64,000 nucleotides of DNA from Rhizophagus irregularis (Eukaryota): the NCBI RefSeq assembly GCF_026210795.1, contig NC_089430.1, positions 5,146,001-5,210,000 on the forward strand, in the 5' to 3' direction. Positions within the stretch are counted from its first letter, which is position 1, and every line of letters starts with the position of its first letter. Of this stretch, positions 53,384 to 58,752 are shown piece after piece. The position numbers and the translations under genes were made by a program. A model generated the notes under the pieces. That model was not told where the DNA came from. It searched no databases and saw only the letters and a program-made list of their open reading frames with translations.

Positions 53384-56300
53384 ATGGATTCTTTTAGGCT
53401 AATTAGGCCATCAGATGCTAACGAGAAATGTTTAAAATGTAATTTTATATGTTACGCAATCCGTTTTCAACGAAACTTCAAAAATTGGACTAGTGGTAAT
53501 AAAGATATTGATAAATTTATTCAAAGTACACAGCTATCAGAGCATACTTATGATGGAGTAAAAAATGCATTAGAATGGATTCCTAGATTTTATGATGTTA
53601 AATATATTGCTAAAAATGAATATAGAGCAATTTGGATTGATGGAAATATAAGTTATTGGGATGATGAAAATCAAAATTGGAAAAGGGGTCATAATGCATT
53701 TGTTAACTTAAAGAGTTTGAATACTGCAAAAAATATATTAGAGTTTACAAATAAGGTATAATATATTTATTTTAATAGTGTTTATTTTAATTTTTTATTC
53801 ATATATTGTTACATTCGTAGAACAAAATAAATCATAAATTATTTGGAATAACTCAGAATCCAGAAACAAAAGATTACTTAATAGTTTTAGATGATATATG
53901 TGCAAAATGTAATCGTACATGTAATTCAATATACTTTCAACGAAATTTCAAAAATTGGACCAGTGGTAATGATGATATTGATAAATTTATTCAAAATACT
54001 CAGTTATCAGAACATGTTTGGCATATTTTCGATTCAGTAAAAGCACTAGAATGGATACCTTATAATAGATTTTATGATATTAAATATATTGCAAAAGATG
54101 ATTTTGGAGAAGTGTATAGAGCAAATTGGATTGATGGAAATATAAGTTATTGGAATAATGAAAATCAAAATTGGAAAAAAGATAATCAAAATATGTTTGT
54201 GAATTTAAATAGTTTAAATAATCCAAACAATCTTACATTAGAACTTGCAAATAAGGTATTGTATATTGATTGTTTAATATAATTTTGAATATTTAAATTT
54301 ATTTATTATTATTGCATTTTATAGATTAAAATGGACCATGAATTTTATGGAATAACTCAGAATCCAGAAACAAAAAATTATATGATGGTTTTGAATGATA
54401 AATGTAAAAAATGTGATTATATATGTGATGCAATTCATTTTCAACATAAATTCATAGATTGGACTAGTGGTGATGATGATATTGATAAGTTCATTCAAGA
54501 TACTCAGTCATCAGTTCATTATTATGCAAATTTAGCATTAGAATGGATACCTTATGATAGATTGTACAATATTAAATATATTACAAAAGATGAGTTTGGT
54601 GAAGTGTATAGAGCAAATTGGATTGATGGATATTTAGCTTACTGGGATTATGAAAATCAAAATTGGAAAAGAGAAGATCATAACATGTTTGTGAATTTGA
54701 AGAGTTTAAATAATCCAGACAATTTTACATTTAATGTTACAAATAAGGTATACTGATAAGTATATTTACTCAACATAATTTATTTTATTTTTTCTAACAT
54801 ATTGTTACTTTGTAGATTAAAATAAAAATAGATCATGAATTTTATGGAATAACTCAAAATCCAGAAACAAAAAATTATATGGTGGTTTTAAGTACTAATA
54901 AATGTAATGCAACTAACTTACAACAGAAATTTATTGACTGGACCAGTGGTAATAATGATATTGATAAATTTATACAAGATACTCACAATAATGTAGAAGA
55001 AGTATTAGAATGGATACCTAATGATAAATTTTATGATATTAAACATATTGCAAAAGATGAATATAGAGCAAATTGGATTGATGATTTTGTAAGTGGAAAA
55101 CTTAATTATAAAAGTTATTTGAATAAAGAAAATAAAAATTGGAAAAGAAAAGGTTATATCTTCCTTGTTAATTTGAAGATATTAAAAAATACAAACAATC
55201 TTACATTAGAATTTGCAAATAAGGTATAGTTAATATAAATAAGTTTAATATTTAACAAAATTTTGATAATTTTATTTTTATAACATAGCATTACATTTGC
55301 AGATTAAAATTGAACACGAATTTTATGGAATAACTCAGGATCCAGTAACAAAAAATTATATGATGGTTTTGAATAATAAATGTAAATGGTGTGATAAAAT
55401 ATGTAATGTGATTCACTTTCAACTGAAATTTATTGATTGGACTAGTGGCAATAACAATATTGATAAGTTTATTCAAGATACCCAACTATTAGCTCATAAT
55501 TATGCAAAGGCAGCATTAGAATGGATACCTTATAATAAGTTTTATAACATTAAATATATTTTAAAAGATGAATTTGGGGAAATATATAGAGCAAACTGGA
55601 TTGATGGATATATAAGTCATTGGGACGATGAAAATCAAAATTGGAAAAGAGAAGATCATAATATGTTTGTGAATTTGAAGAGATTAGATCATCCTCAAAA
55701 AAATCTTAATACATTGGAATTTACAAATAAGGTATACTAAATTACTAATAGGCTTATAAACAAAATTTAAAAAATTTTATTTTTCTAATATGATTTTACA
55801 TTTATAGATTAAAATTGAACATGAATTTTATGGAGTGACTCAGGATCCAGAAACAAAAAATTATATGATGGTTTTGAATAATGAATGTAAAAAGTGCAAT
55901 AAAATATGTAATTCAATTCGTTTTCAACAGAAATTCATAGATTGGACTAGTGGTAATAATAACATTGATAAACTTATTCAAGATACCCAACTATCAGCAC
56001 ATGAAAATGTAGAGAATGCATTAGAATGGATACCTTATGATAGATTATATGATGTTAAATATATTGCAAAAGATGAAGTGTGCAGATCAAATTGGACTGA
56101 TGGGTATATATATAATTGGGATTATGAAAATCTGGATTGGAAAAGAAAAGGTTGTAATATGTTTGTGAATTTGAGGAGTCTAAATACTCCAAAAAACCTT
56201 ACATTGCAATTTACAAAAATGGTATAACAAATTTATTAATTTATTATTATTCAATAATATTTTGAATATATTTTAAATATATTTCTTTTATATTTACATT

Positions 56301-58752
56301 TGTAGGTTAAAAATAGGCATGAATTTTATGGAATAACTCAAGATCCAGATTCAAAAAAATATATGATGGTTTTGAATAATAAATGTAAAGAATGTAATTA
56401 TATATGTAATGCAATTAATTTTCAACATAAATTCATAGATTGGACTAGTGTTAATAATGATATTGATAAATTTATTCAAGATACTCAGCTATTATTAGCT
56501 CATAATGGTTTAAACGAGGCATTAGAATGGATACCTTATGATAGATTTTATGACATTACAATAGATAAATTTGGCGAAGTGTATAGAGGTAATTGGACTG
56601 ATGGAAAAATTAGTTATTGGGATGATGAAAATCAAAATTGGAAAAGAAACAATCCTAATATGTTTGTGAATTTGAAGAGTTTAATTATTTCAAATAATCT
56701 CATGTTAAAATTTACAGTTATGGTATAATAAATTTATCATTTAACAAATATGTATTTTATTTTTTCTAACATGTTATTTCATTTGTAGATTTATAGAAAC
56801 CATGGATTTTGCGGAATAACTCAGGATCCGGAAACAAAAAATTACATGATTGTTTTGGATGATATATGCGAAAAATGTAATTGTATACTATGTAATTCAA
56901 TATACTTTCGGCAAAATTTCAAAAATTGGACCAGTGGTAATAATAATATCGATAAATTTATTCAAGATACTCAGTTATTAGCAAATAGTGGTTTAGGAGC
57001 ATTAGAATGGATACCTTATGATAGATTATATGATATTACAAAAGATGAATTTGGCAAAGTGTATAGAGCAAATTGGATTGATGGAAACATAAGTTATTGG
57101 GATAAAGAAAGCCAAAACTGGAAAAGAAATGATCAATATATATTTGTGACTCTGAAAAAATTAAATAATTTAAAAAATATTACGTTAGAATTAACAAATG
57201 AGGTATGAATATGCTTATTTTATGATAATATTATTATAAATAATAATTTTACAATTTACTCTATTTGTAGATGTGTAAACCTTATGGAATAACTCAGAAT
57301 TCAGAAACAAATGATTATATAATAGTTCTGTCTGATCAATGCAAATGTGATTATACATGCTATGTAAAGCACTTTCAACAAAATTTTAAAAATTGGACCA
57401 GTGGTAATAGTCATATTGATAAATTTATTCAAAGTTCTCAGTTGTCAGTTCATTATAATCATATAAAACAAGCACTAGTATGGATACCTTATAGTAGATT
57501 TTATGATATTAAATATATTGCAAAAGGTGGATTTAGCAAAGTGTATAAAGCAAATTGGGTTGATGGATATTTAACTGATTGGAATGATGAAAGACAGAAT
57601 TGGAAAAGAGATGGTCAACATATGGTGGTTGTTCTGAAAAGTTTAAATAATTCAAAAGATATCACATCAGAATTTATAAATGAGGTATAATTTATTTATT
57701 TGTTATTTTTAATTAAAAATTTTGAAAATTTAATTTTATTAATATAATAAATATATTCATAGGTTATGTTGCATAATAGAGTAAAAGATAATTATTTTAT
57801 TGTTAGATTTTATGGAATAACTCAGGATCCAGAAACAAAAAATTATATGATGGTCTTAGATTATGCAAAGGAAGGAAGTTTGCGGAGTTATTTAGATGCA
57901 AATTCCAATAATAAGTTAAATTGGAAAGATAAAATCAATTATTTACATAATATTGCATTTGCACTTGAAGGTATTCATAAAAATGAATTAATTCATAGAG
58001 ATTTACATATTGGCAATATATTGAAAAATCATGACATTATTCTTATAACTGATATGGGGTTATGTAAACCTGCAGATTACAGTCTATCAACAAATACAAA
58101 AAATAATGTATATGGTGTTTTGCCATATATTGCACCTGAAATTTTACGAGGACAAAAGTTTACTAAAGCTTCTGATATTTACAGTTTTGGTATAATTATG
58201 TATGAAATAATTTCTGAATTACCACCATATTATAATATAAGTCATGATAACAATTTAGCAATAAGAATACGTCAAGGACTTAGGCCAATGTTTAATATTA
58301 AAGTACCTCAACCAATTGTGAATTTAATTAAAAGATGCTTAGATGCAAATTCATTAAATAGACCAACAGCAAGTGAAATTAAGAATAAATTGTGGAAATT
58401 TAAATTACAAAAAAAAATTAGCGAAGAAATCAATAATAATTTACCAATTATTAACATACCTTTAGCTAGTTCATCATTTATAACACATTCAGAAGCTTTT
58501 TATACAAGTAGACTACTCAATTTTAATAATCTCCCTGAACCAAAAAATTCTGATGATTATTATGAACAAAGTGATAATATAATAAGCAAAGAATTTTCAG
58601 GTATTAATCAATAGTTTATAGTTTAAAATAATTATATTGACTTATATGATACTAATTATTTTTTAATTTATTGAAAAGAATCTCTACAAACTGGTACTTC
58701 CCAACAATCTTGTATTTCTATTTCTCAACAGATTGATATTGATAAATTGTAA
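53384..58752 (+). CDS. TKL-type kinase with 9 tandem Cys-knuckle/N-lobe modules and one C-lobe (gene D, about 1545 aa)
   Basis: Phase-0 exons 53384-53755, 53821-54255, 54325-54747, 54816-55223, 55303-55731, 55808-56221, 56306-56722, 56789-57202, 57271-57684, then 57763-58600 and 58679-58752. No stops seen. Last module has GGFSKVY and VVLK; C-lobe has HRDLHIGN, DMG, APE. Confidence 0.88.

What the first reader, a model, noticed from the sequence alone, without database searches (positions are those of the whole stretch)
53384..57684. Only the terminal N-lobe keeps the Gly-rich loop; upstream copies replace it with acidic residues or delete it
Seen: the last module reads AKGGFGKIY (A), AKGGFGKVY (B, C) or AKGGFSKVY (D). 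Upstream modules read TKDEFGEVY, AKDDFGEVY, TEDKFGKVY, AKNEY or AKDEY, while W, LEW and usually the beta3 Lys are retained. All nine D module exons appear open. Inference: upstream lobes are kept as folded units but have lost the ATP-binding loop, so they are specialised non-catalytic modules rather than decaying copies.
Basis: partly seen in the sequence, partly recalled or inferred. Interest (0 to 1): 0.7.

Follow-up and report, generated by a model that had tools for sequence, protein, structure and literature searches.

The report
Fungal kinase with repeated disarmed half-domains
This mycorrhizal-fungus gene carries nine copies of the front half of a protein kinase; only the last keeps the ATP-gripping features, while the other eight stay conserved, are predicted to fold, and likely act as variable binding modules for the one probably active kinase.

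Summary
Confirmed and family-wide. Gene D (53384-58614, +) is a Rhizophagus TKL-like kinase with nine tandem phase-0 exons, each carrying a Cys/His motif, a helix pair and most of a kinase N-lobe. In relatives, 78 of 78 terminal modules keep the GGF loop against 3 of 363 upstream ones. Upstream modules also lose the beta3 Ala, often the alphaC Glu, and about 10 residues of the alphaC-beta4 linker. They are not decaying: omega is 0.24-0.57, below every neutral simulation, 16 of 16 indels keep frame, and an upstream-only relative is predicted to fold as kinase N-lobes. D1-D4 are spliced together in one contig. The architecture also occurs in Glomus and Acaulospora and was not found in ten literature searches. 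Most likely a repeat array of binding modules; a tolerated folded passenger is not excluded.

The parts
53384..53755 (+). Gene D exon 1: ATG, Cys motif, helix pair, N-lobe beta1-alphaC; loop shortened (AKNEY); beta3 VNLK; ends TNK
   Evidence: intron 1 (65 nt) spliced in contig X2 record 9 and in 3 X23 reads
53821..54255 (+). D exon 2: beta4-beta5 of lobe 1, then module 2 (AKDDFGEVY; beta3 Lys to Asn)
   Evidence: spliced in X2 record 9
54325..54747 (+). D exon 3: module 3 (TKDEFGEVY)
   Evidence: spliced in X2 record 9
54816..55223 (+). D exon 4: module 4 (AKDEY; Cys motif and His partly lost)
   Evidence: 5' splice joint
55303..55731 (+). D exon 5: module 5 (LKDEFGEIY)
   Evidence: splice sites predicted only
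55808..56221 (+). D exon 6: module 6 (AKDEVC; beta3 Lys to Arg)
   Evidence: splice sites predicted only
56306..56722 (+). D exon 7: module 7 (beta1 shortened, IDKFGEVY)
   Evidence: splice sites predicted only
56789..57202 (+). D exon 8: module 8 (beta1 shortened, TKDEFGKVY; alphaC Glu kept)
   Evidence: splice sites predicted only
57271..57684 (+). D exon 9: terminal N-lobe beta1-alphaC with Gly-rich loop AKGGFSKVY (57520-57546), beta3 VVLK, alphaC Glu as last codon
57763..58614 (+). D kinase exon: long alphaC-beta4 linker, beta4-beta5, hinge and C-lobe (HRDLHIGN, DMG, APE, DIYSFG); 3' end predicted, may splice at 58601
   Evidence: Pfam PF07714 E 4e-39
32784..35712 (-). Gene A: four module exons plus kinase exon; the four modules are identical to those of P0066
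40061..41528 (-). Gene B: single-module kinase of the same family
44371..48618 (+). Gene C: seven module exons plus kinase exon, broken in C2, C7 and the C-lobe; unbroken at those places in P0011 and P0274

Best explanation
Gene D is a TKL-like kinase gene of an arbuscular mycorrhizal fungus in which one exon is repeated nine times, giving eight upstream modules that lack the ATP-binding features, are predicted to fold as free kinase N-lobes, and likely act as a variable binding array that targets or gates the one terminal, probably active kinase. Steps: (1, shown in sequence) the repeat is a phase-0 exon holding beta4-beta5 of one lobe plus the Cys/His motif, helix pair and beta1-alphaC of the next, so copies can be added or lost in frame; (2, inferred) unequal crossing-over adds, removes and homogenises copies; (3, predicted) each beta1-beta5 unit folds across the exon joint, and the next module's Cys/His-helix part follows where a C-lobe would; (4, pattern shown, cause inferred) with no C-lobe to close an ATP site, selection on the loop glycines, the beta3 Ala, the alphaC Glu and the alphaC-beta4 linker is released and they drift by G-to-A and C-to-T changes or are deleted, repeatedly in separate subfamilies; (5, inferred) the conserved core displays a few fast-changing positions that would set partner specificity, as in the repeat domains of fungal NLRs or the pseudokinase half of plant tandem kinases.
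For: Loop: 78 of 78 terminal against 3 of 363 upstream; 30 of 35 against 3 of 120 in distant relatives. Beta3 Ala 75 of 78 against 7 of 363. Beta3-Lys to beta4-Gly distance 32-34 in 70 of 70 terminal lobes, median 24 in 320 upstream. Core Trp, Cys, His, WTSG and IDKFIQ positions as conserved upstream as terminally; Cys3+His set in 306 of 331 upstream and 58 of 68 terminal modules. Omega for 11 intact upstream modules 0.57/0.46/0.24 under three models against neutral minima 0.92/0.70/0.33 in 20 simulations. 16 of 16 gaps in frame. Upstream-only relative P0107: pLDDT 85, pTM 0.69; the top 50 of 48,161 chains are kinase N-lobes, e.g. RIPK3 Z 6.7, rmsd 2.5 over 78 residues. Splicing of D1-D4. Homogenisation: in 54 of 75 genes the terminal module's Cys/helix half is closer to its own upstream modules than to other terminals. 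C1 reads as a hybrid of modules 1 and 2 of P0011. A site class with omega about 3.2: 2dL 24.1 on all columns, 11.4 on 93 indel-free columns, null maximum 8.8 of 21.
Against: No partner, ligand or regulatory effect is shown. Open frames and a conserved core are also expected if the modules only need to fold so that the terminal kinase is made. The fast-site signal is modest, not corrected for recombination or CpG hypermutation, and the same columns vary in terminal modules too. Fold-search Z values (5.0-7.3) lie in the range the tool calls common. The models are of relatives (P0060, P0107), not of D, and I could not inspect coordinates, so Zn binding, inter-module packing and clustering of variable sites are untested. 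Splicing from D4 to the kinase exon was not among the listed joints. Gene C has been lost as a pseudogene in this sequence, and D9 itself has mild departures (beta3 Val, last loop Gly to Ser). Omega for beta4-beta5 (0.63) and beta3-alphaC (0.73) of upstream modules does not differ significantly from 1.
Confidence: 0.5

Rival explanations
1. Tolerated passenger. A symmetric exon duplicates and is deleted by unequal crossing-over; copies persist only because stops, frameshifts or misfolding upstream would destroy the terminal kinase. The array has no function of its own.
For: Explains omega below 1, in-frame indels and fold conservation without any new function. The loop decays along the mutational bias. 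Module number varies from 1 to 13 and between alleles. These kinase families are high-copy and heavily methylated (PMC8647823, passages); gene C is a pseudogene here.
Against: Arrays occur in three divergent subfamilies and three genera; clean in-frame deletion is easy, yet long arrays persist. Omega upstream is similar to that of the working kinase. A site class with omega above 1 is detected.
Confidence: 0.3
2. Built-in regulator or scaffold. The array is a rigid arm that folds back on, or oligomerises, the terminal kinase and sets its activity, as the JAK pseudokinase does, without recognising outside ligands.
For: pTM 0.69 for three modules suggests ordered module-to-module packing. The conserved surface includes the Cys/His-helix part. 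N-lobes are common allosteric docking surfaces (recalled).
Against: A cis regulator would need only one or two modules and should not tolerate 1 to 13 copies; the four-module model has lower pTM (0.59); variable sites are not explained.
Confidence: 0.14
3. The acidic loop is itself selected, to repel ATP or mimic a phosphorylated loop.
For: Asp 51% and Glu 45% of replacements in ungapped loops exceed the roughly 25-29% expected from neutral decay; DE is the commonest pair (67 of 363).
Against: Both-acidic loops are 57 of 363, deleted loops 164 of 363, and 67 have no acid; the columns have high entropy; the codons are one transition from GGT GGA/GGG; shared ancestry inflates the counts.
Confidence: 0.06

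Closest known systems
Expanded protein tyrosine kinase-domain (PF07714, TKL-like) family of Rhizophagus and other Glomeromycota
   Same: The terminal domain hits PF07714; all 120 listed relatives are Rhizophagus proteins labelled kinase-like, hypothetical or unnamed; the expansion is described in PMC6123716, PMC8647823 and PMC3886924 (passages read).
   Different: The passages read do not mention tandem N-lobes; the module has no Pfam hit at the curated cut-off (9 of 9 D exons).
Plant tandem kinase proteins (RPG1, WTK1, WTK3) and JAK pseudokinase-kinase pairs
   Same: A duplicated kinase part loses catalytic motifs and stays fused to an active kinase; decoy and regulator roles are proposed for it (PMC8761531, passages).
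   Different: There the extra unit is a whole bilobed (pseudo)kinase, present once. Here it is an N-lobe without C-lobe, in up to about 12 copies, one exon each.
High-internal-conservation WD, ANK and TPR repeats of fungal NLRs (Podospora het-d/het-e type)
   Same: Repeat array with homogenisation, repeat-number variation and a few positively selected sites per repeat (PMC4986451, passages; here).
   Different: The repeat is a kinase-derived unit of about 140 aa, N-terminal to the effector; there is no NACHT or NB-ARC domain; no recognition function is shown.

Membership tests
TK/TKL-type protein kinase (terminal domain of D) | Match to PF07714/PF00069 above the curated cut-off | tested here: met
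   134.9 and 125.1 bits against cut-offs 23.1 and 31.7
TK/TKL-type protein kinase (terminal domain of D) | Gly loop, beta3 Lys, alphaC Glu, HRD Asp and Asn, DFG Asp, APE | tested here: met
   AKGGFS, VVLK, INE, HRDLHIGN, DMG, APE; motif roles recalled, three of them also stated in PMC13519141
TK/TKL-type protein kinase (terminal domain of D) | Phosphotransfer activity | not testable with these tools
   needs an assay
Kinase N-lobe fold (upstream modules) | Five-stranded sheet with alphaC in the order beta1-beta2-beta3-alphaC-beta4-beta5 | tested here: met
   Predicted for relative P0107: model 53-165 aligns with RIPK3 15-100 (Z 6.7, rmsd 2.5, 78 residues); the top 50 chains are kinase chains; Z is middling and this is a model
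Pseudokinase domain (upstream modules) | Bilobed kinase domain lacking one or more catalytic residues | tested here: not met
   No C-lobe follows any upstream lobe; beta5 runs into the next module's Cys motif
Tandem kinase proteins (TKP) | Two complete kinase or pseudokinase domains in one chain | tested here: not met
   One C-lobe per window gene
Tandem kinase proteins (TKP) | The non-catalytic unit recognises an effector and controls the kinase | not testable with these tools
   no partner known
Fungal NLR with conserved repeats | NACHT or NB-ARC domain | tested here: not met
   No such Pfam hit in any of the ten D exons; every exon is accounted for
Fungal NLR with conserved repeats | Concerted evolution, repeat-number change and diversifying sites | tested here: inconclusive
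   Signs of all three, modest and not corrected for recombination
Zinc-binding motif | Four conserved Cys/His ligands that meet in space and bind Zn | tested here: inconclusive
   Cys3+His in 306 of 331 upstream modules, CxxC..CxxC in distant subfamilies; geometry and binding not tested

The most novel reading that the evidence does not exclude
Arbuscular mycorrhizal fungi have turned the kinase N-lobe into a free-standing repeat domain, more than once, and use arrays of these lobes as a diversifying non-self or effector sensor wired directly to a kinase: an NLR-like receptor class built from half-kinases.
Probability: 0.25. Interest if true: 0.88.

Novelty: new variant of a known kind. Interest (0 to 1): 0.62.

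Why it matters
Kinase lobes are normally treated as inseparable halves of one domain (recalled). Here the N-lobe is repeated up to about 12 times without its C-lobe and stays under purifying selection. Several hundred natural copies separate the N-lobe residues kept for ATP and C-lobe contact (loop glycines, beta3 Ala, alphaC Glu, alphaC-beta4 linker) from those kept for the fold. The modules have no Pfam model, so the architecture is invisible in standard annotation of the largest expanded gene family of these crop symbionts. If the arrays sense partners or effectors, they offer a testable answer to why these fungi carry so many kinases.

Tried and rejected
No whole genome is held for the window, so there is no genome-wide count. 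No listed sequencing holder is on record as RNA; the raw RNA reads laid were shallow and mostly paralogs (86-89% run on unlike), so no expression level is claimed. Read-level confirmation of gene C's lesions and of the splicing of A-C was not obtained; annotated proteins were compared instead, and P0273, which shares the lesions, may come from the same assembly. Pfam on the nine module exons gave only sub-threshold hits (MHC_I, WKF, DUF5088, DUF5700, Staphostatin_A), rejected as chance; a sequence search of PDB with the module profile gave nothing below E 0.5. Fold searches with the four-module model were filled by the terminal kinase. The ESM Atlas returned only Mucoromycota kinase clusters. 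The 80 metagenome loci kept are mostly short and were not analysed. No D orthologue was among the 120 listed hits (best module identity 57-72%); 134 further hits were not listed. One clade of terminal modules: rejected. Selected acidic loop: largely rejected. General decay of upstream modules: rejected. No complex prediction was run, since any cut of this protein would mostly test re-pairing of split lobes. Four look-ups of earlier findings returned nothing. Ten literature searches listed no paper whose title or abstract start describes tandem N-lobes; subscription papers and all supplements were not seen and may hold domain tables that bear on novelty.
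Full report
Observation. The window holds four related kinase genes, A (-), B (-), C (+) and D (+), with 4, 1, 7 and 9 module exons. In D the nine exons (372-435 nt, all divisible by 3) are open and separated by GT..AG introns of 65-84 nt; the tenth exon holds the rest of a kinase (PF07714, E 4e-39). Gene C is broken in this sequence (frame changes and a stop in C2, a frameshift in C7, TAA at 48310), while its relatives P0011 and P0274 are unbroken at those places.

Anatomy. Each internal exon reads beta4-beta5 (xGITQDPETKNYMMVL), then C-x2-C-x3-C, FxNWTSGN..IDKFIQ.TQL..H, LEWIPY, beta1, loop, beta2, a Trp-rich insert (WIDG..W..W.R), beta3 and alphaC; the intron follows the alphaC Glu codon. 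A complete N-lobe therefore spans an exon joint, and its beta5 runs into the next module's Cys motif rather than into a hinge and C-lobe. Strand names are assigned from recalled kinase anatomy and agree with the predicted secondary structure. One contig of 1363 nt (X2 record 9; its kind is only guessed to be RNA) covers D1, D2, D3 and the start of D4 with no mismatch and skips the three predicted introns; 3, 1 and 1 raw RNA reads cross the same joints. Joints from D4 onward were not among the listed rows (20 rows not shown).

Family. A search with D3 found 254 longer proteins; the 120 listed are all from Rhizophagus irregularis, R. clarus or R. diaphanus, with 3 to 13 module hits each. The four modules of A are identical to those of P0066. 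Of 570 modules that span the loop, 78 lie directly before a C-lobe, 363 lie upstream of one, and 129 are in models without a downstream C-lobe and were left out of the counts. GGF-type loops: 78 of 78 against 3 of 363; by alignment column, 4 of 363 have GG, and one of these looks like the terminal lobe of a fused gene model. Of the 129 left out, 8 have GGF, 7 of them as the last module. In 152 more distant proteins the counts are 30 of 35 against 3 of 120. Of 20 distant proteins looked up, 16 are Rhizophagus, 3 Acaulospora morrowiae and 1 Glomus cerebriforme. These sets hold paralogs and alleles and are not independent samples.

More is lost than the loop. Beta3 Ala: 75 of 78 terminal, 7 of 363 upstream; beta3 Lys: 78 of 78 and 312 of 363. 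The alphaC Glu is lost in 12 of 17 upstream modules of the window. The distance from the beta3 Lys to the beta4 Gly is 32-34 residues in 70 of 70 terminal lobes and has median 24 in 320 upstream ones, so most of the alphaC-beta4 linker, which anchors the N-lobe on the C-lobe (recalled), is gone. The Cys, His, Trp, WTSG and IDKFIQ positions are as conserved upstream as terminally; the Cys3+His set is complete in 306 of 331 and 58 of 68 modules.

Selection. For the 11 intact upstream modules of A and D (140 codons) omega is 0.57, 0.46 and 0.24 under MGK+F1X4, MGK+F3X4 and GY+F; for the four terminal modules 0.64, 0.49, 0.22; for the four C-lobes 0.45, 0.35, 0.18. Omega = 1 is rejected for the upstream set (2dL 23.5 and 43.0). 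Twenty neutral simulations with intron base frequencies gave minima of 0.92, 0.70 and 0.33, and every simulated leaf gained a stop (the very AT-rich frequencies may overstate this). All 16 distinct internal gaps among D2-D9 and A2-A4 are multiples of 3. By region the signal is significant for the Cys-helix part (0.51), beta1-beta2 (0.36) and marginally the insert (0.47), but not for beta4-beta5 (0.63) or beta3-alphaC (0.73). A site-class test on 16 upstream modules, five of them from pseudogene C, favours a class with omega about 3.2 (2dL 24.1); on 93 indel-free columns 2dL is 11.4, against a maximum of 8.8 in 21 null simulations, with four sites above 0.9. Recombination and CpG decay were not modelled.

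The acidic residues. Terminal loops are encoded GGT/GGC GGA/GGG; upstream ones mostly GAT GAA/GAG/AAG. In 194 ungapped upstream loops 97% of the replacements at both positions are D, E, N, K, S or R, the products of G-to-A changes; control glycines give 90%. Only 57 of 363 loops have two acids, 71 have one, 67 none, 4 GG and 164 are shortened. Asp and Glu are more common than neutral decay predicts (51% and 45% against about 25-29%), but shared descent inflates this. Release from selection plus mutational bias is the simpler reading.

History. On columns that exclude the diagnostic sites, the terminal/upstream label changes 36 times on a tree of 374 modules (shuffled mean 60.6). In a 65-module tree across subfamilies, the Acaulospora group (support 100/100), the window-type group (89/93) and a third group (99/89) each hold their own terminal and upstream modules; well-supported branches force at least 4 changes, and one clade of terminal modules is rejected (p-AU 4.1e-5; few columns, bootstrap not fully settled). 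The Cys-helix half of a terminal module is closer to its own gene's upstream modules than to other terminals in 54 of 75 genes, whereas beta3-alphaC is closer among terminals in 76 of 78. C1 matches module 1 of P0011 up to beta3 and module 2 after it, and C has 7 modules where P0011 has 8. Inference: arrays are regenerated and trimmed by unequal crossing-over, and the ATP features are lost each time a lobe leaves the terminal position.

Structure. Models are of relatives. P0060 (4 modules plus kinase): pLDDT 77, pTM 0.59; residues of about 467-790 align with tyrosine kinase domains at Z 27-29. P0107 (three loop-less modules, no C-lobe): pLDDT 85, pTM 0.69. Against 48,161 chains the top 50 are kinase or pseudokinase chains (49 by title; one spliceosome chain carries the PRPF4B kinase numbering), Z 5.0-7.3, aligned over their N-lobes in canonical order; Foldseek agrees weakly (best E 4e-4). 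The Z values are middling, but the hits are of one kind and match the sequence evidence.

Mechanism and rivals. Shown: architecture, loss pattern, purifying selection, partial splicing. Predicted: fold. Inferred: function. I favour a binding array (0.5), because arrays recur in three subfamilies and three genera, are homogenised, vary in number and carry a few fast sites, the regime described for fungal NLR repeats (PMC4986451, passages), and because degenerate kinase copies act as decoys and regulators in plant tandem kinases (PMC8761531, passages). A folded passenger with no function of its own (0.3) explains most of the data equally well and cannot be excluded here. A cis regulator or scaffold (0.14) and a selected acidic loop (0.06) fit less well.

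Novelty. The kinase expansion is known (PMC6123716, PMC8647823, PMC3886924; passages only), and the proteins are in databases under generic names. The tandem N-lobe architecture did not appear in ten searches of the held library (listings and abstract starts only), which lacks most subscription papers; no supplements were read. It fails the defining features of pseudokinases, tandem kinases and NLRs, so I rate it a new variant of a known kind, interest 0.62.

Noticed in passing
window 44371-48618 (+): Gene C is a pseudogene here (lesions in C2, C7 and the C-lobe; HQD for HRD). The annotated model P0273 starts and stops around the same lesions; P0011 and P0274 are unbroken there and have one more module.
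   Followed up: partly
window 57271-57684 (+): The terminal lobe D9 departs mildly from the family: beta3 Val (Ala in 75 of 78), last loop Gly to Ser, LVW for LEW.
   Followed up: partly
window 33824-34252, 41100-41528, 47248-47663, 57271-57684: In this subfamily the first Gly of the GxGxxG loop is Ala even in terminal lobes (AKGGFG); a distant subfamily has GKGGFA/S.
   Followed up: no
window 93-869 (+): 3' part of a fifth kinase-like gene (PF07714 E 1e-32) with HKN for HRD and DVE for DFG: a likely pseudokinase cut by the window edge.
   Followed up: no
window 52851-53400, 43978-44387, 35696-35755: The upstream regions of D, C and A share 70-78% identical blocks, so these genes were likely duplicated with their promoter regions.
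   Followed up: partly
window 28607-30199 (-): 530-aa open frame with a weak F-box-like hit (E 1.5e-4, below cut-off).
   Followed up: no
window 15261-15932 (+): Exon of a glycosyl hydrolase family 47 gene (E 6e-52).
   Followed up: no
window 12483-13640 (+): 385-aa basic open frame with no Pfam hit.
   Followed up: no
window 22455-23140: Purine-rich 18-bp tandem repeat, about 39 copies, open in several frames.
   Followed up: no
P0004 modules 5-6; P0192: Rare upstream modules that still read GGF; P0192 has identical loops in both modules, likely a recent duplication caught before decay.
   Followed up: no
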